This document shows positions 3,339 to 14,368 of a stretch of 32,492 nt of DNA, piece after piece. The translations under genes and the position numbers were made by a program. Source of the DNA: Gemmatimonadales bacterium (lineage in GTDB: Bacteria; Gemmatimonadota; Gemmatimonadetes; Gemmatimonadales; GWC2-71-9). A model generated the notes under the pieces. The model saw nothing but the letters and a program-made list of their open reading frames with translations, did no database searches and was not told where the DNA came from. Each line of letters begins with the position of its first letter. Position 1 is the first letter of the stretch. The stretch spans positions 1 to 32,492 of the forward strand of contig JBGAOL010000004.1 in the NCBI GenBank assembly GCA_044221825.1, read 5' to 3'.

Positions 3339-4394
3339 GTGACCAAGCTCCTCGCCATCGAGACGTCCTGTGACGAGACCTCCGCCGCCGTGGTGGCGGA
3401 GGAGGGCGGGCGCGTGGCGCTCCGGAGCCTGGTGATCCTGTCGCAGGACGTGCACAAGATCTTCGGCGGGGTGGTGCCGGAGCTGGCCAGCCGCGCGCAC
3501 CTCACCACCATCGAGCCGGTGGTGGACCAGGCGCTGGCCGAGGCGGGTGTGGCGCTCGAGGAACTGGACGCCATTGCCGTGACGGCCGGCCCCGGGCTGG
3601 TGGGCGCGCTCCTCGTGGGCGTGATGTACGGGAAGACGCTGGCCTGGCGCCTCGGCGTGCCGCTCGTGGGCGTGCACCACCTGGAAGGCCACCTCTTTGC
3701 CCCGACGCTCGAGGGCGAGGTGGCGCCGCCCTTCGTGGCGCTGCTCGTGAGCGGCGGCCACACCCTGCTCCTCGACGTCCCCGCCTGGGGCGAGTACCGC
3801 CTCCTCGGCACCACCCGCGACGACGCGGCGGGTGAGGCCTTCGACAAGGTGGGCACGCTCCTGGGCCTCGAGTACCCGGGCGGCCCCATCATCGAGCGGC
3901 TGGCCCGCGACGGGGACCCCCGGCGCTTCAAGTTCCCGCGCCCCATGCTCCGCGAGGCGGAGCACCCCGGGCCGGACCAGTTCACCTTCTCCTTCAGCGG
4001 CCTCAAGACCGCCGTGCTCCGCGCCGTGCAGCAGAGCCCCAACCTCGAGGCCGACCGCCCGCACCTGGCCCGCGGCTTCCAGGACGCCGCCCTCGACGTG
4101 CTGGTAGGCAAGGCGGCGGCGGCGGTGGAGGCCCTCGACCGGCCGCTGCTGGTGCTGGGCGGCGGCGTGGCGTGCAACGGTGAGCTCGCCGCCCGGATGC
4201 GCCGGCGGCTCGGGCAGGAGGTCCGGGTGGCCGTGGCCTCGAACCGGCTCAACACCGACAATGCGGCGATGATCGGGGCCGCCGGCCTGTTCCGGCTCCG
4301 GCACGGCGCCGGCGGCCTCGACCTCGAGCCCCGCGCTGACCTACCTTTCCCCGGCCTCGTCCCCATCACCCCAGCGACCGGACGCCCGACATGA
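3339..4394 (+). CDS. tsaD: tRNA N6-threonylcarbamoyltransferase TsaD
   Basis: LAIETSCDETSAA, GGVVPELASRAH, GPGLVGAL, HHLEGH, LVSGGHT, DDAAGEAFDK, FSFSGLKT, TDNAAMI. Confidence 0.97.
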   Translation: MTKLLAIETSCDETSAAVVAEEGGRVALRSLVILSQDVHKIFGGVVPELASRAHLTTIEPVVDQALAEAGVALEELDAIAVTAGPGLVGALLVGVMYGKTLAWRLGVPLVGVHHLEGHLFAPTLEGEVAPPFVALLVSGGHTLLLDVPAWGEYRLLGTTRDDAAGEAFDKVGTLLGLEYPGGPIIERLARDGDPRRFKFPRPMLREAEHPGPDQFTFSFSGLKTAVLRAVQQSPNLEADRPHLARGFQDAALDVLVGKAAAAVEALDRPLLVLGGGVACNGELAARMRRRLGQEVRVAVASNRLNTDNAAMIGAAGLFRLRHGAGGLDLEPRADLPFPGLVPITPATGRPT

Positions 4395-5221
4395 ACGTCT
4401 ACCCGTTTGCCCTGCACCTGGGCCCCGTGGAGCTCACCGGCTACGGGATCATGATGATGGTCGGCTTCCTGGTGGGCGGCTGGCTCATCACCCTCGAGCT
4501 CCGGCGGCGGGGCTTCTACGAGGAATACGCCTCCGACATCACCGTGGCCGCGGTGGTGGGCGGCGTCATCGGGGCCAAGGTGTGGTACTGGGTCCTGAAC
4601 GGCGGCCCGCTGTTCTCGCGCGGGGGGCTGGTGTGGTACGGCGGGTTCGTGGGCGGCGCGCTGGCGGTGCTGCTCAACAGCCTCCGGCTCCGGGTGCCGG
4701 TCCGCTGGACCATGCAGCTCTGCGCCCCGGCGCTGGCGGCGGCCTATGCCCTGGGCCGCATCGGCTGTTTCATCGTGAATGACGACTACGGCCGGCCCAG
4801 CGACCTGCCGTGGGCGGTGAAGTTTCCCCAAGGCCTCCCCCCGTCGACCGCGGAGCGGATGCAGTCGATGTTCGGCATCCCCGTTCCGCCCGGCACCGAT
4901 CCCGGCACGGTTCTCGCCGTGCATCCGACCCAGCTGTACGAGGTGACAATCATGCTGGCGGCCTTTCTGGTCCTCTGGCGGCTGCGCCTCCAGCAGCGGG
5001 CCACCGGCTGGCTGTTCAGCGTCTACCTGGTCTGGGCGGGCGCCGAGCGGTTCATCATCGAGATCTTCCGGGCCAAGGACGACCGTTTCTTCGGTCCCTT
5101 CACCCTGGCACAGGTGGTCAGCGTCATCCTGATCACCATCGGCGTCGGGCTGATGGCTCGCCTGGCGAAGGGTGATGAGCTCGCGCCGGGCCCCTACCTG
5201 ACCAAGACCGCGACAGCCTAG
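4391..5221 (+). CDS. lgt: Prolipoprotein diacylglyceryl transferase
   Basis: Multi-TM protein with GGLVWYGG, LGRIGCF...YGRPSDLPWAVKFP, HPTQLYE, RFIIEIFR. ATGA overlap with tsaD. Confidence 0.92.
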   Translation: MNVYPFALHLGPVELTGYGIMMMVGFLVGGWLITLELRRRGFYEEYASDITVAAVVGGVIGAKVWYWVLNGGPLFSRGGLVWYGGFVGGALAVLLNSLRLRVPVRWTMQLCAPALAAAYALGRIGCFIVNDDYGRPSDLPWAVKFPQGLPPSTAERMQSMFGIPVPPGTDPGTVLAVHPTQLYEVTIMLAAFLVLWRLRLQQRATGWLFSVYLVWAGAERFIIEIFRAKDDRFFGPFTLAQVVSVILITIGVGLMARLAKGDELAPGPYLTKTATA

Positions 5222-5235
5222 CTCGGCTGTTTTTT
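5213..5235 (+). terminator. Intrinsic terminator at the end of lgt
   Basis: ACAGCC-tagctc-GGCTGT followed by TTTTT. Confidence 0.65.
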
Positions 5236-5243
5236 CCGCGTGG

Positions 5244-5292
5244 CCGGAAATGAATGCCGGTATTTCGTGCCGATCCGGCAAGAAATACCGGC
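5244..5292. promoter_or_regulatory. Candidate enhancer (UAS) for a sigma-54 activator
   Basis: CCGG-N9-CCGG dyads at 5244-5260 and 5275-5291, centres 31 bp apart. 11-bp inverted repeat GCCGGTATTTC (5256-5266) / GAAATACCGGC (5282-5292). Lies about 90-140 bp upstream of the predicted start. Confidence 0.55.
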
Positions 5293-5315
5293 TAATCGTT
5301 GTTGTAGAACAATGC

Positions 5316-5340
5316 TAAACGATTGAAAAACAAGCAGTTA
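5316..5340. promoter_or_regulatory. IHF-like binding dyad
   Basis: TAAACGATTG-AAAAA-CAAGCAGTTA. Each strand gives a one-mismatch match to WATCAANNNNTTR. Lies between the UAS and the -24/-12 element. Confidence 0.55.
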
Positions 5341-5356
5341 CATAAACTGTGATCAG

Positions 5357-5372
5357 TGGCACATAGCCTGCA
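5357..5372 (+). promoter_or_regulatory. Sigma-54 (-24/-12) promoter
   Basis: TGGCAC-ATAGC-CTGCA. GG (5358-5359) and GC (5370-5371) are at canonical spacing, in an AT-rich island. Confidence 0.8.
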
Positions 5373-5379
5373 ATAATCG

Positions 5380-5634
5380 AGTGCGACGGCGCAAAGCGCC
5401 GAACGGAAAGTGGTAGGCCGAAGAAGAGTGGGCTCAAGCACTTCGGCTTGGTCCCGTCCAAACTCAGGGGGCGGCCTACCACCTCACCTTGCGGACCCCC
5501 GATGGGGCGCCGCACTCGCAGTGGCAGGCCGAAGAAGAGTGGAGCGAGCACTCCGTTCGTCTCCGTCCACAACTCAGGGGGCGGTCTGCCATCCCAGTGC
5601 CAACGCCGGTCCTTCGGGGCCGGCGTTTGGCTTT
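5380..5634 (+). ncRNA. Putative sigma-54-dependent structured ncRNA with two homologous domains (family not recognised)
   Basis: Units 5410-5482 and 5521-5592 show compensatory base changes. Bounded by a sigma-54 promoter and a UUCG terminator hairpin. Indels between the units break the reading frame. Confidence 0.72.
5602..5634 (+). terminator. Terminator-like hairpin closing the putative ncRNA
   Basis: AACGCCGGTCC-TTCG-GGGCCGGCGTT with a cUUCGg tetraloop, followed by TGGCTTT (imperfect U-tract). Confidence 0.7.
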
Positions 5635-5658
5635 GCTCCCCCGTGCTACCTTCCAGCC

Positions 5659-7212
5659 ATGCTGTCGTCGCTTCCCGCCATCGACCCCGCCACCGGCGAG
5701 GTGTTCGCCGAGACGCCACTCACCCCAGTGGAGGAGGTGGGGAGGATCGTGGCGCGCGCGCGCTCGGCCCAGCCGGATTGGGCGGCGCGGCCGCTGGCGG
5801 AGCGGGCACAGGTCCTGTCCCGCTTCCAGCAGGTGCTCTACGAACGGCGGCGGGCGATGGCGGACCTGATCAGCCGCGAGAACGGCAAGCCCCTCGGCGA
5901 GGCGCTCTTCGCCGACGTGGCGGTGACGCTGGACCTGGCGCGGTACTACCTGGCGCAGGGCGCGCGACTGCTTCGGCCCACGCCGGTGCGGGCAGGCAAC
6001 CTGGCGCTGCTCGGCAAGCGCGGCCGGGTGCACTGGGACCCGATGGGCGTGCTGGCCGTGATCGCGCCGTGGAACTATCCGCTCCTGCTGCCGGCCGGGA
6101 CCGTGATCCCCGGCCTGCTGGCGGGTAACGCGGTGGTGATCAAGCCGAGCGAGTTCACCACCCGGACGGCGGTGCTGCTCACGGAGCTCCTGGCCGAGGC
6201 GGGCGTGCCGGAGGGCCTGGTGGCGCTGGTGGTCGGTGGCGGGGAGGTCGGGGCGGCGCTGATCGAGGCGGCACCGGACAAGATCTTCTTCACCGGCAGC
6301 GCCGCCACCGGCCGCAAGGTGTCGCTCCGCGCGGCGGAGCAGATGATCCCTGTCAACCTGGAGCTCGGCGGCAGCGATCCGTGCCTGGTGCTGGCGGACG
6401 CGGACCTGGAGCTGGCGGCGAGCGGCGCCCTCTGGGCGCGCTTCACCAACGGTGGGCAGACCTGCGTGGCGGTGAAGCGGGCCATCGTGGAGCGCCCGGC
6501 GTACCAGCGCTTCGTGGACCTGGTGGTGCGGAAGGCGGAGGCGCTGGTGCTCGGCCCCGGCCTCGCGCCATCCACCGACGTGGGGCCGATGATCCGCGAC
6601 TCGCAGGTCCGCGAGCTCGAGCGCCAGCTGGCGCAGGCGGTGGCACGCGGGGCGCGGGTGCTGACGGGCGGGCGCCGCCGCCCCGACCTCGGGCCGACGT
6701 TCTTCGAGCCGACGGTGGTCACCGAGCTGCCGCTCGACGCGGCGCTCTGGCGGGAGGAGGTCTTCGGCCCTGTCCTGCCCATCGTGGTGGCGGAGGACGA
6801 GGAGCACGCCATCCGCCTGGCCAACGACTCCGCCTACGGGCTCTCGGCCAGCGTGTGGACCCGGGATCGGGCGCGCGGCCGGCGGGTGGCGCGCCGCCTC
6901 GAGGCGGGCGCGGTGCAGGTGAACGATGCCACGAGCCACGTCGGCACCGCCGAGGTGCCGCACGGCGGGGAGAAACAGTCGGGGCTGGGCCGCACCCATG
7001 GGGAGCACGGCCTGCGCGAGACCTGCCGGCCGCGCTACGTGGGCGTCGACTTCCTGGACTGGATGCACCGGCCATGGTGGTTTGGCTACCACGCCGACAG
7101 CATGGGGGCGCGAGACGCCTTCCTGCGCTTTGCCTTTGCGCCGTCGTGGCTGGCGCGGCTCCGCGCGATGCCGGCGGCGCTCGGGCTGCTCCGGAACCGG
7201 CGGCGGCTCTAG
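5659..7212 (+). CDS. NAD(P)-dependent aldehyde dehydrogenase family protein
   Basis: IDPATGE, ENGKP, IAPWNYP, KPSE, FTGS, LELGG, GQTCVA (catalytic Cys), EEVFGP, GGEKQSGLGR. Start placed at ATG 5659, behind an extended -10 TGCTACCTT. Confidence 0.93.
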   Translation: MLSSLPAIDPATGEVFAETPLTPVEEVGRIVARARSAQPDWAARPLAERAQVLSRFQQVLYERRRAMADLISRENGKPLGEALFADVAVTLDLARYYLAQGARLLRPTPVRAGNLALLGKRGRVHWDPMGVLAVIAPWNYPLLLPAGTVIPGLLAGNAVVIKPSEFTTRTAVLLTELLAEAGVPEGLVALVVGGGEVGAALIEAAPDKIFFTGSAATGRKVSLRAAEQMIPVNLELGGSDPCLVLADADLELAASGALWARFTNGGQTCVAVKRAIVERPAYQRFVDLVVRKAEALVLGPGLAPSTDVGPMIRDSQVRELERQLAQAVARGARVLTGGRRRPDLGPTFFEPTVVTELPLDAALWREEVFGPVLPIVVAEDEEHAIRLANDSAYGLSASVWTRDRARGRRVARRLEAGAVQVNDATSHVGTAEVPHGGEKQSGLGRTHGEHGLRETCRPRYVGVDFLDWMHRPWWFGYHADSMGARDAFLRFAFAPSWLARLRAMPAALGLLRNRRRL

Positions 7213-10797: not shown

Positions 10798-12144
10798 CTA
10801 GGAGCCGATCGCGAACTTCTTGATCTTGTTGATGAGCGTGGCGCGCGAGATGCCGAGCTCTTGCGCGGCGCGGGTGCGGTTGCCCGCGTGATGGCGCAGG
10901 GTGCGCTCGATGTGGGCGCGCTCCAGCTCGTCGAGCGTCATGGGGGTGTGGCGGCGATCGCCGGGCCCGGGGCGGTTGCGGAAGTCGCCGGGCAGGTGCT
11001 CCAGCGCCACGGCGGGCTGTCCACGCGCCAGTAGCAGCGCCCGCTCCAGCACGTTCCGCATCTCGCGCACGTTGCCCGGCCACGGGTGCGCCAGCAGCCG
11101 TTCCAGCGCCTCGGGGCCCACGGCCGCCGGGGCGCCCGGCAGGTTCCGCTGCAGCTCGTTGACGAGCGCGAGCAGCAGTGTCAGGCGGTCCTCGCGCAGC
11201 CGCTCGCGGAGGGGCGGCAGGTGGACCGGCATGACGTTCAGGCGATAGAGCAGGTCGCCGCGGAACTGGCCGGCCTCGCTCAGCGCGGTGAGGTCCTGCG
11301 CGGTGGCGGCGATGACGCGGATGTCGGCGTTCAGGTCCCGGGTGCCGCCCACCCGGCGGAAGGTCCGGGTCTCGAGCAGGCGCAGCAGCTTGGGCTGCAG
11401 CTCGGCCGGGAGCTCGGACACTTCCTCCAGGAAGAGCGATCCGCCCGCGCCGGTCTCCACCAGGCCGGGACGGCGCTCACGGGCCTGTTCGGCGCTGGCG
11501 TACTCCGAACCGAAGAGGTCGGCATCGATGTCGGCGGCGCTCCGGCCGAAGAAGCTCACGGTGAGGAACGGCCCCGCCGCCCGGGGCGAGAGCTGGTGCA
11601 CCACCTCGGCCAGCCAGCCCTTCCCCACCCCGCCCTCGCCGGTGAGGAGCACGGGCGTGCGCTCGGAGAGCGAGACGAGGCCCACGCGGGTGAGCAGCTC
11701 CTTCATGGACGTGGAGCTGCCGAGCGCGTCGAGGTCGTCGCCGGGGGCGGCGCGGAGGAGGAGGAGCTCGTTGAGGCGCTTGAGCCGCACCTTGTCCGCC
11801 ACCCGCTGCACGGCGGCCTGCAGGTGCTGCAGGTCCACCGGCTTGGTGAGGAAGTTCTCGGCGCCGAGCTGCATGGCCTGGACCGCCGTGGACACCTCGG
11901 CAAAGCCGGTGAGGACGATGACCGCGGCGTTCCGCTCCTTGAAGCGGGCCAGCGCCTCGAGGCCGCTCATGCCGGGGAGGTTCAGGTCCAGCAGCACCAC
12001 CTCGGGGCGGAGCCGGTCGTAGGCGGCGAGGCCCGCCTCGGCGTCGAGCTCGCGGGCCACCTCGTAGCCCGCCTGCTCGAACACGTTGCCGATGGCGCGC
12101 AGCACGTCCACGTCGTCGTCGATGAGCAGGACCGAGTCAGCCAT
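10798..12144 (-). CDS. NtrC-family response regulator (REC, AAA+, Fis-type HTH) with degenerate sigma-54 interaction loop
   Basis: LLIDDD..VLLDLNLPG receiver, GEGGVGK Walker A, FRGDLLYRLNV, WPGNVREMRN, GNRTRAAQELGISRATL. GAFTGA is absent. Confidence 0.93.
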   Translation of the reverse strand: MADSVLLIDDDVDVLRAIGNVFEQAGYEVARELDAEAGLAAYDRLRPEVVLLDLNLPGMSGLEALARFKERNAAVIVLTGFAEVSTAVQAMQLGAENFLTKPVDLQHLQAAVQRVADKVRLKRLNELLLLRAAPGDDLDALGSSTSMKELLTRVGLVSLSERTPVLLTGEGGVGKGWLAEVVHQLSPRAAGPFLTVSFFGRSAADIDADLFGSEYASAEQARERRPGLVETGAGGSLFLEEVSELPAELQPKLLRLLETRTFRRVGGTRDLNADIRVIAATAQDLTALSEAGQFRGDLLYRLNVMPVHLPPLRERLREDRLTLLLALVNELQRNLPGAPAAVGPEALERLLAHPWPGNVREMRNVLERALLLARGQPAVALEHLPGDFRNRPGPGDRRHTPMTLDELERAHIERTLRHHAGNRTRAAQELGISRATLINKIKKFAIGS

Positions 12145-14368
12145 CGGTGCTCCTCGGGGTACGGGTGGGGTCGCGGGGGAGCTGGAAGGCGAAGCGGGCG
12201 CCGCCCTCGGCCCGGTTGCCCCCGGTGATCTCGCCGCCGTGCGCGCGGACGATGCCGTGCGAGAGGGAGAGCCCGAGGCCGGTGCCCTTGCCCTGCGGCT
12301 TGGTGGTGAAGAACGGCTCGAAGATCCGCGACAGCGATTCCGCGGGGATGCCGGGCCCGCTGTCGAGCACCTCGAAGCCCACCCAGTCGGGGGTGGACCA
12401 GGTACGGACCAGGCCGCGGGCGCCGGGCACGCCTTCCATCGCGTGGGCGGCGTTGACGAGGAGGTTGGTGATCACCTGGCGCACCTGGTCGGCATCCGCG
12501 CTCACGGCGGGGAGCGTCGGGTCGAGGCCGAGGGTCCAGATGACGCCCTGGCCGCCGAGCGCCGGGGTGGTGACGAAGGTCTCGCGGACCACGGCGTTCA
12601 GGTCGGTGGCGCGGCGCTCGAGCGGGCGCTGCCGGGCGAAGCTCAGCAGGTCGGTGACGATGCGCGCCGCCCGCATGGCCTCGCCCCGGATGGTGTCGAG
12701 GCCGCGGCCCACCTCCTCCTGCACGTGCGGGTCGAAGGAGAGCGCCTGCGCCATGGCGGCGATGCCGGCGAGCGGGTTGTTGAGCTCGTGCGCCACGCCG
12801 GAGACCAGCGACCCGAGCGCCGCCATCTTCTCCGAGTGGGTGAGCCGCTCCCGCAGCTCCACCTCGTCGGTGACGTCCCGCGCGATGGCGAGCACGGCGC
12901 GCCGCCCGCCCTGTTCTTCCACGGGCACCACCACCATGGCCGCCTGACGCTGGGCGCCGTCGCGGCGGCGGAAGTGGAACATGAAGTCGCGGGTCTCGCC
13001 CTCCAGCGCGCCGGCCAGCTGCGCCGCCACGTAGCCCCACTCCGCCGGGATCACGAAGGCCTGCAGCGTCAGCGCCGTCTCGGGCGCGGTGACCCCTGCC
13101 AGCCGGAACGCCGCGCGGTTGGCCGAGACGAAGCGTCCCTCGCGGTCCAGGGTGAAGATGGCGAGCGGGGCCCGGTTGAAGAGCACGCGGAAGCGGCGCT
13201 CCGAGCGGCGGAGCGCCTCGGTGGCCAGGCGCTCGCGGGTGACGTCGCGGGCCACGGCCACGGCGCCGGCCGGGGTGCCGCGTTCCTCGAGCGGCGCCAC
13301 CGAGACCTCGGCGATGCGCACGCCGTCGGGGCGGCGGATGAGCGCCTCGTAGCGCCGGCCGCTGCCGCTCGGCGCCTCGGGCCCGTCGTGTGGCAGCAGC
13401 TGGTCGAGCGGCTGGCCCAGCAGCTGGCCGGCGCCCGGGCCGAAGAGCTCGGCCGCCGCAGGATTGGCGAGCACCACGCGGCCGTCGGGGCCGGTGAGCA
13501 GGATGGCCTCGACGGCGGTGGCCACGAGGCGGCTGTAGCGCGATTCGAGGCGGACGTACTGCGTGAGGTCGTCCACGGCCACCACGAACCCCCCACCCTG
13601 GCGCGGCGTGGCCGTGAGCACGGCGTGCTGGCCGCGCACGGTGTCGAGGAAGCGGCTGGTGCGCTGACCGGTGCGCCGCGCCTCACTGAAGGGGTCCTCG
13701 GTGGGCGGCCAGTCGGTGAACAGCGACGCCACGTCGAGACCGGGCAGGGCCGTGACCTCCACGCTCGCCATCTCGGCGATGAAGCGGTTGGCGCGCTCGA
13801 TGCGCCCGTCGTCGTCCACCAGCGCCAGGCCGTTGCCGGTGCCGTCGAACGCCGCCTGCCACTCCTGCTTGATGCGCGACACCTGCGCCACCACCCGGCT
13901 CCGCCCCACCGCGAGCGCGGCCAGGTCGGCGAACGCGAGGAGCAGCCGACGCTCCGGCTCCGAGTAGGGCCGCGGCTCGGGCGCCAGCAGCACCAGCCAG
14001 CCCACCAGGCCCCGGCCGTGGCGGAGCGGCAGGACCGCCGTGGCACCCAGGCCCTCCGTGACGGCGACGGCGCGGAGCGGGCTCTCCGGCGCCGCGCGGA
14101 GGTCATCGGTGAAGAACGGCAGCGCCTGGACGTCGGGGTGCGCCTCGAGCTGCGCCAGCAGCGCCTGCGCCAGCGCCGGCGACAGGCCGCAGAGCGCCCC
14201 CACCGACGCCAGCCCGCGCCGCTCATCCCGGAGGAAGAGACCCGCGGCGCGCGCCGGGACCAGCGCCAGCGCCTCCTCGACCACGGCGGCGATGGTGCCC
14301 TCCGCGTCGCCGGTGGCGGCCAGGTGATGGGCCACGCGGCCCAGCTGGACGACGGGATCGCCGGTCAT
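12137..14368 (-). CDS. Cytoplasmic sensor histidine kinase (GAF, three PAS, HisKA, HATPase)
   Basis: SEKMAALGSLVSGVAHELNNPL H-box, NLLVNA, DSGPGI, IFEPFFTTK..GTGLGL. No obvious TM segment. Confidence 0.93.
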   Translation of the reverse strand: MTGDPVVQLGRVAHHLAATGDAEGTIAAVVEEALALVPARAAGLFLRDERRGLASVGALCGLSPALAQALLAQLEAHPDVQALPFFTDDLRAAPESPLRAVAVTEGLGATAVLPLRHGRGLVGWLVLLAPEPRPYSEPERRLLLAFADLAALAVGRSRVVAQVSRIKQEWQAAFDGTGNGLALVDDDGRIERANRFIAEMASVEVTALPGLDVASLFTDWPPTEDPFSEARRTGQRTSRFLDTVRGQHAVLTATPRQGGGFVVAVDDLTQYVRLESRYSRLVATAVEAILLTGPDGRVVLANPAAAELFGPGAGQLLGQPLDQLLPHDGPEAPSGSGRRYEALIRRPDGVRIAEVSVAPLEERGTPAGAVAVARDVTRERLATEALRRSERRFRVLFNRAPLAIFTLDREGRFVSANRAAFRLAGVTAPETALTLQAFVIPAEWGYVAAQLAGALEGETRDFMFHFRRRDGAQRQAAMVVVPVEEQGGRRAVLAIARDVTDEVELRERLTHSEKMAALGSLVSGVAHELNNPLAGIAAMAQALSFDPHVQEEVGRGLDTIRGEAMRAARIVTDLLSFARQRPLERRATDLNAVVRETFVTTPALGGQGVIWTLGLDPTLPAVSADADQVRQVITNLLVNAAHAMEGVPGARGLVRTWSTPDWVGFEVLDSGPGIPAESLSRIFEPFFTTKPQGKGTGLGLSLSHGIVRAHGGEITGGNRAEGGARFAFQLPRDPTRTPRSTDG

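What the first reader, a model, noticed from the sequence alone, without database searches (positions are those of the whole stretch)
5380..5634. Candidate novel sigma-54-driven ncRNA with two covarying protein- or ligand-binding-like domains
Seen: two units 111 nt apart (5410-5482 and 5521-5592). Each has an 11-bp closing stem. GTGGTAGGCCG/CGGCCTACCAC in unit 1 becomes GTGGCAGGCCG/CGGTCTGCCAT in unit 2, with one T-A to C-G compensatory swap and two G-C to G-U changes. Both units keep an invariant purine-rich internal loop (AAGAA opposite AGGGGG), an invariant GAGT/ACTC helix and a conserved GTCCA. The apical stem differs in sequence but still pairs (CAAGC/GCTTG versus CGAGC/GTTCG). A 5' hairpin (CGGCGC-aaa-GCGCCG) and a cUUCGg terminator frame the units. 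Stems vary while loops stay fixed, and indels break the frame, which indicates selection on RNA structure. Established precedent: sigma-54-transcribed regulatory RNAs such as CrcZ, Qrr and GlmY. I do not recognise this one as any of them. Inference: either a trans-acting sponge/decoy RNA with two identical binding sites, or a tandem-aptamer attenuator for the aldehyde dehydrogenase. The dehydrogenase having its own -10 favours the first.
Basis: partly seen in the sequence, partly recalled or inferred. Interest (0 to 1): 0.88.

Follow-up and report, generated by a model that had tools for sequence, protein, structure and literature searches.

The report
New sigma-54 small RNA in Gemmatimonadaceae
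This is a previously uncatalogued, well-folded small regulatory RNA gene found only in one branch of the soil and sludge bacterial family Gemmatimonadaceae; it acts on its own rather than as a switch for the neighbouring gene, and its molecular partner is still unknown.

Summary
Window 5357-5637 (+) carries a sigma-54-type -24/-12 promoter, a 5' hairpin, two ~73-nt hairpin units, and a terminator hairpin.

- **Distribution.** The RNA is single-copy in its own genome. It was found in 30 of 36 same-genus genomes. A covariance model found it in 27 of 151 Gemmatimonadota genomes, all in one family and in 7 of 82 genera.
- **Structure.** On 86 distinct units, 99.1% of cells pair and 13 of 23 pairs show compensatory changes. 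No shuffle out of 500 reached this, and slid controls paired only 33-44%.
- **Invariant core.** The internal loop AAGAA/AGGGGG and its flanking pairs never vary.
- **Novelty.** Rfam 15 has no match, and four literature searches found nothing.
- **Gene context.** The RNA always follows lgt. The aldehyde dehydrogenase is adjacent in only 11 of 74 loci, so this is not that gene's leader.
- **Unit number.** Most genera carry one unit. The two-unit form is specific to the window's genus.
- **Partner.** Hfq was found in 0 of 81 family genomes, so a CrcZ-like Hfq sponge is rejected.
- **Expression.** Metatranscriptome contigs were inconclusive.

Best reading: a stand-alone trans-acting sRNA whose invariant purine loop docks an unknown partner. 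This makes it a new member of a known kind, of moderate interest.

The parts
5243..5293 (+). Upstream activator-site-like repeats (TGCCGG / CCGGCA half-sites, 17-nt inverted repeat 5256-5272 / 5276-5292) about 65-115 nt before the promoter
   Evidence: Inverted repeat I1. TGCCGGAA, TCCGGCA and GCCGGAA are the commonest words in 55 distinct upstream regions. The activator itself is not identified.
5295..5352 (+). AT-rich spacer with an imperfect palindrome (IHF-site-like) between the repeats and the promoter
   Evidence: Read. Relatives carry AAGTCATTG-N5/6-CAATGACTT at this place. The IHF assignment is inference from textbook sigma-54 promoter layout.
5357..5372 (+). Sigma-54-type -24/-12 promoter TGGCAC-N5-CTGCA (GG 5358-5359, GC 5370-5371); start of transcription predicted near 5383
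   Evidence: Unique match in the window, with 0 of 100 shuffles giving any match. A strict motif lies at a fixed distance in 50 of 68 distinct RNA genes. rpoN is present in the genome. The start site is inferred, not measured.
5387..5401 (+). 5' hairpin CGGCGC-AAA-GCGCCG
   Evidence: A hairpin of different sequence stands at the same place in relatives. In 62 of 68 genes the 40 nt before P1 fold at -8 kcal/mol or better.
5410..5482 (+). Unit 1: P1 5410-5420/5472-5482; internal loop AAGAA 5421-5425 / AGGGGG 5466-5471; P2 GAGT 5426-5429 / ACTC 5462-5465; P3 hairpin 5430-5455; A-rich 3' bulge 5456-5461
   Evidence: Covariance-model match 5407-5484 at 90.1 bits.
5483..5520 (+). Linker: pyrimidine-rich tail CTCACCT (5483-5489), then a variable hairpin (about 5491-5516)
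   Evidence: In one-unit RNAs the five positions after P1 are mostly C or U: 36, 38, 31, 33 and 36 of 39.
5521..5592 (+). Unit 2: P1 5521-5531/5582-5592; loop AAGAA 5532-5536 / AGGGGG 5576-5581; P2 5537-5540 / 5572-5575; P3 hairpin 5541-5564
   Evidence: Covariance-model match 5518-5594 at 84.3 bits. Second units form their own orthologous group: mean identity is 0.78 between second units and 0.72 between first and second units.
5600..5637 (+). Terminator hairpin (stem 5600-5612 / 5617-5630, loop UUCG) with an interrupted U-tail
   Evidence: I5. The terminator stem covaries in 23 two-unit RNAs. A GC-rich hairpin of 7 bp or more lies within 70 nt in 66 of 68 genes. The consensus scan did not list it.
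4391..5221 (+). lgt (prolipoprotein diacylglyceryl transferase), the constant upstream neighbour
   Evidence: Pfam LGT, E = 1.3e-51. It lies upstream of the RNA in 70 of 74 loci (the other 4 are cut at the edge) and in 22 of 23 further loci.
5659..7212 (+). Aldehyde dehydrogenase, a neighbour only; not part of the RNA system
   Evidence: Pfam Aldedh, E = 8.8e-142. It is directly downstream in only 11 of 74 loci.

Best explanation
**What it is.** A stand-alone gene for a structured small RNA of about 250 nt (roughly 5383-5637, + strand).

**Shown**
- It has its own conserved sigma-54-type promoter, with activator-site-like repeats and an AT-rich spacer upstream.
- It has a 5' hairpin, one or two copies of a 73-nt hairpin module, and its own terminator.
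- The module's helices P1 and P3 covary. A 23-nt core never changes: the last two pairs of P1, the 5x6 purine loop AAGAA/AGGGGG, the 4-bp P2, and the first pair of P3. The only variation in the core is A-U to G-U in P2, plus one C-G to A-U swap.
- The gene is tied to lgt, not to any downstream gene. It is confined to a sub-branch of one Gemmatimonadota family.

**Inferred**
- The RNA acts in trans.
- The invariant purine-rich loop is a docking site for a partner, most likely a protein. The RNA would then work as a signal-induced decoy or scaffold. The number of sites would be set by unit duplication in the window's genus, or by gene duplication in another genus.
- The pyrimidine-rich tail after each module (CYCYC, often CACCUCC) may additionally pair with Shine-Dalgarno regions.

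**Odds.** About 0.9 that it is a real independent structured sRNA gene. About 0.4-0.45 that the core is a protein-docking (decoy or scaffold) site.
For: - **Structure.** On 86 distinct units, 99.1% of cells pair, 13 of 23 pairs show compensatory changes (190 cells), and 0 of 500 shuffles reach this. Slid controls pair 33-44%.
- **Strand.** About 260 of 1967 paired cells are G-U, which would be A-C on the other strand. The + strand has z = -4.2 against -2.9 for the - strand.
- **Independent gene.** A strict sigma-54 motif is present in 50 of 68 distinct genes. Six genes have a TTGACR/TAnnnT promoter instead. A terminator hairpin is present in 66 of 68, and it covaries.
- **Not repetitive.** There is one locus in the genome, holding two units.
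- **Trans rather than cis.** lgt is always upstream. The gene downstream is usually a convergent cytochrome c-FTR1 permease gene.
- **Core is the functional site.** It is invariant in the 30 loci found by BLAST alone. It is nearly invariant in the matches found by the covariance model in other genera.
- **Core is not a seed for a perfect-match target.** No other perfect complement of either core strand exists in the genome; the only perfect matches are the RNA itself.
- **Module copy number is labile.** Of 68 distinct genes, 45 have one unit and 23 have two. Four loci carry tandem genes.
Against: - No partner is identified.
  - Hfq was not found in 0 of 81 family genomes.
  - RapZ and Ro were not found in the 75.6%-complete genome.
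  - CsrA is present, but no GGA is conserved in the apical loops.
- Expression and RNA ends are not shown. RNA-library contigs cover the RNA at depth 2-7. They also cover the promoter region and both flanking genes, so DNA carry-over or read-through cannot be excluded.
- Invariance of the P2 sequence could equally reflect pairing in trans, or a ligand pocket.
- Twelve of 68 genes match neither promoter pattern strictly.
- The window's own terminator has a weak U-tail.
Confidence: 0.45

Rival explanations
1. It is a classical base-pairing sRNA. The pyrimidine-rich single strand after each module (CYCYC, often CACCUCC, which resembles the anti-Shine-Dalgarno sequence) pairs with ribosome-binding sites of target mRNAs. 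The invariant loop serves stability, processing or a chaperone.
For: - The five positions after P1 are mostly C or U: 36, 38, 31, 33 and 36 of 39 one-unit RNAs.
- Each unit of two-unit RNAs has such a tail.
- The tail lies between two stable helices, so it is likely accessible.
- C-rich seeds are usual in bacteria without Hfq (established knowledge, recalled), and Hfq was not found here.
Against: - The tail is much less conserved than the core. Variants include CUCUC, CCCAC, UCACU, UUACU, GUACU and GUUUU. Seeds are normally the best-conserved part of an sRNA.
- This reading does not explain 23 invariant core nucleotides.
- No target was predicted. The genome-wide search for complements of the core gave only the RNA itself as a perfect match.
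- The tail was not tested against mRNAs.
Confidence: 0.3
2. Each module is an aptamer for a small molecule or ion, with the purine loop as the pocket. The RNA would be a ligand-sensing sRNA, or a riboswitch acting through its terminator.
For: - Variable helices around an invariant internal loop is the pattern seen in aptamers.
- Tandem modules exist in known riboswitches (recalled: glycine, NAD+-I).
- A terminator directly follows the last module.
Against: - There is no conserved downstream gene. In most loci the next gene is convergent.
- No alternative anti-terminator pairing was seen. The test of the tail against GGGGG failed on the variable tails.
- Regulation by a sigma-54 promoter with activator sites is typical of sRNAs, not riboswitches.
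- No Rfam aptamer matches, even at E up to 10.
Confidence: 0.1
3. It is a cis-acting leader or attenuator of the aldehyde dehydrogenase gene at 5659.
For: In the window the terminator ends about 22-29 nt before the ATG. RNA-library contigs bridge the terminator into the gene in two runs. No separate sigma-70-like promoter was found.
Against: The dehydrogenase is adjacent in only 11 of 74 loci. Elsewhere it lies 2.3-2.7 kb away behind a convergent 707-713-aa gene. The RNA with promoter and terminator is conserved regardless.
Confidence: 0.03
4. It is a repeat or mobile-element remnant, or merely structure in the lgt 3' untranslated region, without its own function.
For: It is a tandem duplication, always sits just after lgt, and has a narrow taxonomic range.
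Against: - There is one locus per genome.
- Strong compensatory change maintains the helices.
- It has its own conserved promoter and terminator.
- First and second units are each orthologous across species.
Confidence: 0.02

Closest known systems
GlmY/GlmZ of Enterobacteriaceae (sigma-54-dependent sRNAs; GlmY is a decoy for the protein RapZ)
   Same: - A stand-alone sRNA with a sigma-54 promoter, repeated upstream activator sites and an AT-rich (IHF-like) spacer.
- The promoter type switches between lineages (sigma-54 in most, sigma-70-like in one genus). Such switching is recalled from the GlmY/Z literature.
- Duplicated homologous copies.
- A proposed protein-decoy logic.
   Different: - No Rfam match.
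- A different fold, a long hairpin with a purine loop.
- RapZ was not found, and glmS was not found above the cut-off, in the 75.6%-complete genome.
- No link to glmS was tested.
CrcZ/CrcY of Pseudomonas (sigma-54/CbrB-dependent Hfq sponge)
   Same: Sigma-54 promoter; a repeated purine-rich AAGAAGA-type word that fits the A-R-N pattern; the idea that several sites titrate a protein.
   Different: - Hfq was found in 0 of 81 family genomes.
- The purine word here sits in an internal loop opposite AGGGGG, not in single-stranded A-rich stretches.
- There are only 1-2 sites.
- No Rfam match.
NrsZ of Pseudomonas aeruginosa (sigma-54/NtrC-dependent sRNA built of repeated similar stem-loops; recalled)
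   Same: A sigma-54-driven sRNA made of tandem, similar hairpin modules that vary in number.
   Different: No sequence or model similarity. A different phylum. No ntrBC neighbour. The NtrC-type regulator in the window lacks GAFTGA.
NAD+-I (nadA) and glycine riboswitches (tandem similar aptamer domains)
   Same: Two similar bulged hairpin domains in tandem, with an invariant internal loop and covarying stems.
   Different: It is not a 5' leader of a conserved gene. It has its own regulated promoter. One domain is the commoner state. No Rfam match at E up to 10.

Membership tests
Any Rfam 15 family (including CrcZ, GlmY/GlmZ, Qrr, NrsZ, Y RNA, 6S, nadA, glycine) | Match to the family's covariance model at its gathering score | tested here: not met
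   There were 0 matches in the 32.5-kb window and 0 in 7 homologous loci. At E up to 10 only noise appeared; the best was rnk_pseudo at 17.8 bits against a gathering score of 55.
Sigma-54-dependent stand-alone sRNAs (functional class) | A -24/-12 promoter (GG-N10-GC) at the right distance, with rpoN in the genome | tested here: met
   TGGCAC-N5-CTGCA lies at 5357-5372 and is unique in the window. The motif is conserved in 50 of 68 genes. rpoN is on C233. Dependence on sigma-54 has not been measured.
Sigma-54-dependent stand-alone sRNAs (functional class) | Upstream activator sites and a cognate enhancer-binding protein | tested here: inconclusive
   Repeats are present and conserved. There are 14 strong enhancer-binding-protein matches in the genome. 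The nearest one lacks GAFTGA. No second copy of the repeat cluster was found in the genome.
Sigma-54-dependent stand-alone sRNAs (functional class) | A discrete transcript with defined ends | tested here: inconclusive
   RNA-library contigs cover the RNA. One 160-nt contig (5419-5578) is an exact match. Others also cover the promoter and flanks at depth 2-7.
CrcZ-type Hfq sponge | Hfq present as the titrated partner | tested here: not met
   Pfam Hfq was found in 0 of 81 family genomes, 80 of them at least 90% complete. The control rang in 5 reference genomes.
CsrB/RsmZ-type CsrA sponge | Multiple GGA motifs in hairpin loops | tested here: not met
   CsrA is present. However, apical loops read CAC/CAU-N-UC without a conserved GGA. 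The GGA at the P2/P3 junction is not invariant (GGGG, GGGA and GAAG variants).
GlmY/GlmZ-RapZ system | RapZ adaptor and a glmS target | tested here: inconclusive
   RapZ-like_N was not found, and glmS was not found above the cut-off, in a genome that is 75.6% complete.
Riboswitch / cis leader | Constant position in the 5' leader of a functionally coherent downstream gene | tested here: not met
   The dehydrogenase is adjacent in 11 of 74 loci. In the loci examined, the next gene is a convergent cyt c-FTR1 gene.
Riboswitch / cis leader | Ligand binding by the conserved core | not testable with these tools
   This needs in-line probing or ITC.
Dispersed repeat (REP/MITE-like) | Many copies per genome | tested here: not met
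   There is one locus in G000, and one match in most of the relatives that have it.
Type III antitoxin repeat RNA (ToxI-like) | Tandem repeats directly upstream of an endoribonuclease toxin gene | tested here: not met
   The downstream genes are an aldehyde dehydrogenase or a convergent permease. One unit is the common state.

The most novel reading that the evidence does not exclude
The invariant 23-nt core (the AAGAA/AGGGGG purine loop clamped by P1 and P2) is a new RNA recognition module for an as yet unknown global RNA-binding regulator, or for a small ligand, in a phylum branch that lacks Hfq. The sigma-54-induced RNA would then be the titrating arm of a post-transcriptional circuit not described in any phylum. 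Site number would be tuned by unit or gene duplication.
Probability: 0.3. Interest if true: 0.7.

Novelty: new member of a known kind. Interest (0 to 1): 0.5.

Why it matters
Gemmatimonadota are abundant in soil and activated sludge. My searches of the held literature found no described regulatory RNA for them.

This RNA comes with an unusually clean evolutionary signature, a complete sigma-54 promoter layout and an invariant core. That makes it a ready handle for finding:
- the RNA-binding regulator of an Hfq-less lineage;
- the signal and activator that drive it;
- how module number and promoter type are re-wired between genera.

If it proves to be only one more base-pairing sRNA, it is still a solid new family for Rfam, but not a surprise.

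Tried and rejected
- **Hfq sponge (CrcZ-like).** Rejected, because Hfq was found in 0 of 81 family genomes.
- **Ro/Y-RNA idea.** No TROVE protein was found in the 75.6%-complete genome, and there is no Rfam Y RNA match.
- **GlmY/Z-RapZ idea.** RapZ was not found, and glmS was not found above the cut-off, in the incomplete genome. No conclusion is possible.
- **Core strands as antisense seeds.** Complements with up to one mismatch gave 47 and 25 places. The only perfect matches were the RNA itself. The rest were mostly inside coding sequence, for example CTC TTC TTC runs.
- **Regulon hunt.**
  - Seventeen sigma-54-like sites exist in the genome, none sharing the upstream repeats.
  - Clusters of TGCCGG/CCGGCA gave four unrelated places.
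  - My first regular expressions for the repeats were poorly specified and matched either nothing or too much, so I dropped them.
- **Nearby NtrC-type regulator** (10801-12144, -). It is syntenic in several loci but lacks GAFTGA. It is also present where the RNA has a sigma-70-like promoter, so it is not proposed as the activator.
- **Alternative pairing of the tail with GGGGG.** Not conserved.
- **K-turn, loop E and tandem sheared G-A readings of the loop.** I compared these by eye with recalled consensus sequences. None fits.
- **RNA libraries.**
  - Twenty-three runs hold part of the stretch, with a best share of 0.31.
  - I laid 4 runs from 3 studies. Contigs at depth 2-7 cover the RNA, but in some runs also the promoter and both neighbours.
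  - This shows neither transcription nor RNA ends. Uncovered parts and small shares are not used as evidence.
- **Terminator counts.** My first script was flawed because it folded too long a stretch. I replaced it with a stem search.
- **Supplements of papers** were not consulted. No paper was read beyond search listings and abstract starts.
Full report
**Observation**

- The two units start 111 nt apart (families D1 and D2).
- Unit 1 closes with a perfect 11-bp stem (I4).
- Unit 2's stem differs by one double change (T-A to C-G) and two G-C to G-U changes.
- The words AAGAA, GAGT, ACTC and AGGGGG are identical in both units.
- The + strand folds into the proposed architecture at -134.6 kcal/mol, with z = -4.2 and 0 of 200 shuffles as good. 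The - strand gives z = -2.9.
- TGGCACATAGCCTGCA at 5357-5372 is the only match to TGGCAC-N5-YTGCW in 32.5 kb, and 0 of 100 shuffles gave any match.

The open frame 5410-7212 in the ORF list is only the dehydrogenase frame running upstream. The Pfam domain starts at residue 5 of the protein that begins at ATG 5659, and homologues start at the equivalent Met.

**Is it conserved?**

- The 301-nt stretch occurs once in its own genome.
- BLAST found it in 30 of 36 other genomes of the same genus and in 0 of 24 genomes of two other families of the order.
- Among those 30 loci, 21 have two units and 9 have one. The words GAAGAAGAGT and CTCAGGGGG were unchanged in every unit, although nothing in that search required it.
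- An exact-pattern scan of 185,579 species' genomes gave 44 stretches. All were titled Gemmatimonadota, Gemmatimonadetes, Gemmatimonadales or Gemmatimonadaceae MAGs.
- A covariance model of the unit (R1) found matches in 27 of 151 genomes drawn from the phylum.
  - All matches were in the window's family: 26 of 71 there, and 0 of 79 in eleven other families.
  - They fell in 7 of 82 genera.
  - One of the 27 is the unpublished genome G106, which I did not use further.
- In five genera without a match, I fetched the region after lgt and searched it with filters off. Nothing scored above 15 bits, against 72-95 bits for true units.

The RNA is therefore a lineage-specific invention of a sub-branch of one family. 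It was not found elsewhere in the genomes searched.

**Structure**

I aligned all matches to the model, giving 97 units of which 86 are distinct.
- 99.1% of 1967 cells form standard pairs.
- 13 of 23 pairs show changes on both sides (190 cells).
- No shuffle out of 500 reaches any of the five measures. Sliding the partners by 1-3 columns drops pairing to 33-44%.
- P1 has 9 of 11 pairs with compensatory change, and the inner P3 helix has 4 of 6.
- P2 never changes on both sides. Its A-U becomes G-U in 21 units from other genera (GAAGAAGGGT), and one U-A becomes U-G, so pairing is kept.
- One unit (L100) changes the C-G pair that closes the loop to A-U.

This alignment was fitted to the model, which favours the structure. 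However, a plain MAFFT alignment folded by RNAalifold gave the same helices, with 12 of 23 pairs compensatory.

About 260 paired cells are G-U, which fixes the + strand as the RNA strand. In 23 two-unit RNAs the terminator stem covaries as well. The 5' hairpin keeps its place with different sequences, and 62 of 68 genes fold there at -8 kcal/mol or better.

What never varies is a contiguous core: CG-AAGAA-GRGU-G on the 5' side and (A)CUC-AGGGGG-CG on the 3' side.

**A gene of its own**

Among 68 distinct RNA genes with enough flanking sequence:
- 50 carry a strict TGG[CT]A[CT]-N5-NTGC motif at an almost fixed distance (56-79 nt before the loop word in most, 45 nt in one locus);
- 6 carry TTGACR-N16-19-TAnnnT instead;
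- 12 match neither pattern strictly. Several of these are one letter away from the -24/-12 consensus.

The six genes with the TTGACR promoter all belong to the lineage whose P1 reads GUCCCAGGAC. In four loci that lineage has two complete RNA genes in tandem.

The genome has rpoN and 14 strong sigma-54 activator matches. Upstream of the promoter lie repeated half-sites and then an AT-rich imperfect palindrome, which is the textbook activator-site, bend, promoter layout.
- In the window's genus the half-sites are TGCCGGAA/TTCCGGCA-type.
- In other genera they are 17-bp YGTCAA-N5-TTGACR palindromes.

A GC-rich hairpin of 7 bp or more follows the last unit within 70 nt in 66 of 68 genes. In many, the A-tract/U-tract extension makes the stem 14-21 bp. 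The window's own U-tail is interrupted, and the consensus scan missed it.

**Cis or trans?**

lgt (Pfam) is the upstream neighbour in 70 of 74 loci. The remaining 4 are cut within 300 nt of the RNA. It is also upstream in 22 of 23 loci from other genera.

The aldehyde dehydrogenase follows directly in only 11 of 74 loci (not deduplicated). In 18 loci it lies 2.3-2.7 kb away. In the three of those I examined, a 707-713-aa gene lies between them on the opposite strand, and in the one tested by Pfam it is a cytochrome c-FTR1 iron permease fusion.

An element that keeps its promoter, fold and terminator while the downstream gene changes, and is usually convergent, is not a leader of that gene.

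**What does it do?**

This part is inference. I tested the following partners and targets.
- **An Hfq sponge like CrcZ.** The AAGAAGA word fits the A-R-N pattern, but Hfq was found in 0 of 81 family genomes, 80 of them at least 90% complete. Rejected.
- **CsrA.** It exists in the genome, but the units have no conserved GGA in their apical loops.
- **Ro, RapZ and glmS.** None was found in the 75.6%-complete genome, so no conclusion is possible.
- **Core strands as antisense seeds.** Apart from the RNA itself, no perfect complement of either core strand exists in the genome.
- **The tail as a seed.** The short single strand after each unit is pyrimidine-rich, with C or U at five successive positions in 31-38 of 39 one-unit RNAs. 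It often reads CACCUCC when taken with the end of P1. That is a plausible Shine-Dalgarno-pairing seed, but it varies far more than the core.
- **Unit history.** First and second units are each orthologous across species (mean identity 0.81 and 0.78, against 0.72 between them). Some one-unit RNAs resemble the first unit and others the second. Unit number has therefore changed more than once while the core stayed fixed.

The simplest account of an invariant, helix-clamped purine loop, present in one, two, or two-times-one copies on an inducible transcript, is a docking site for a macromolecular partner. That partner is most likely a protein, and the RNA would act as a decoy or scaffold. I put this at 0.4-0.45. 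The base-pairing rival is at 0.3, an aptamer at 0.1, and the cis and repeat readings are together below 0.05.

**Expression**

Twenty-three public runs hold part of the stretch, 16 of them recorded as RNA, with a best share of 0.31. I laid four metatranscriptome runs from three studies.
- One gave a single exact 160-nt contig inside the RNA (5419-5578).
- Another gave 151-nt contigs at 5244-5394 and 5420-5570.
- Two gave contigs running from lgt, or from unit 2, into the dehydrogenase.
- All were at depth 2-7.

Because the promoter region and both neighbours are also covered, these data do not show a discrete transcript.

**Known or new?**

Rfam 15 gave no match at gathering score in the window or in seven homologous loci, and only noise at E up to 10. 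Four full-text searches returned no paper on a regulatory RNA of this phylum; I saw listings and abstract starts only. The terms combined Gemmatimonas, Gemmatimonadetes or Gemmatimonadota with small RNA, sRNA, sigma-54, RNA motif, structured RNA and Rfam.

In kind it belongs with the sigma-54-driven stand-alone sRNAs (GlmY/Z, CrcZ, Qrr, NrsZ). It is a member of none of these families, and the partner that defines CrcZ and Qrr action is missing here.

**Verdict**

It is a real, strongly supported, uncatalogued sRNA family restricted to part of the Gemmatimonadaceae, and it acts independently of the neighbouring dehydrogenase. The mechanism is open, with a protein-docking core as the best guess. 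It is a new member of a known kind, with interest 0.5.

Noticed in passing
L042, L046, L065, L091, L093, L095, L096, L098 (RNA genes with P1 = GTCCCAGGAC): In one genus the RNA is preceded by TTGACAG-N16-19-TAnnnT (sigma-70-like) instead of the sigma-54 motif. Four of these loci carry two complete RNA genes in tandem about 215-230 nt apart, one with GAAGGGT and one with GAAGAGT in the core.
   Followed up: partly
Upstream regions of L079-L101 versus L001-L030: The activator-site-like repeats differ by lineage. The window's genus has TGCCGGAA/TTCCGGCA-type half-sites. Other genera have 17-bp YGTCAA-N5-TTGACR palindromes, one right after the lgt stop and one about 80 nt before the promoter. The same RNA seems to have been re-wired to different activators.
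   Followed up: partly
window 10801-12144 (-) and 12140-14368 (-): This is a two-component pair. The regulator is NtrC-type (receiver, AAA+ and Fis-type HTH domains), but its sigma-54 contact motif reads EYASAE instead of GAFTGA. The kinase has GAF-PAS-PAS domains. The pair is syntenic with the RNA locus in several genera.
   Followed up: partly
L032 2997-5117 (+ in locus coordinates); equivalent ORFs in L057 and L066: A 707-713-aa fusion of cytochrome c with an FTR1 iron permease lies convergent to the RNA in most genomes. It is missing from this position in the window's clade, where the dehydrogenase abuts the RNA.
   Followed up: partly
window 5214-5235 (+): A short hairpin CAGCC-TAGCTC-GGCTG followed by TTTTTT overlaps the lgt stop codon (5219-5221) and looks like lgt's own terminator. 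I read it from the sequence. The consensus scan did not list it.
   Followed up: no
L106 (G079), about 2329-2540 in the lgt orientation (reverse complement of the locus): In a genus without the RNA, the space after lgt holds a run of GAGGTGA/GAGGTAA heptamer repeats, then a hairpin, then the complementary run (CTCTCACCTCTTA...). This forms a long inverted array of tandem repeats.
   Followed up: no
G114: C62 21640-21945 and C146 7834-7907: This genome has three model matches, two in tandem and a third on another contig at 59.6 bits. It could be a second locus or an assembly duplicate.
   Followed up: no
G016 (same genus, 97% complete): No match was found by BLAST or by the model, but 682 bases of this genome are withheld and read N. 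Absence there is therefore uncertain.
   Followed up: no
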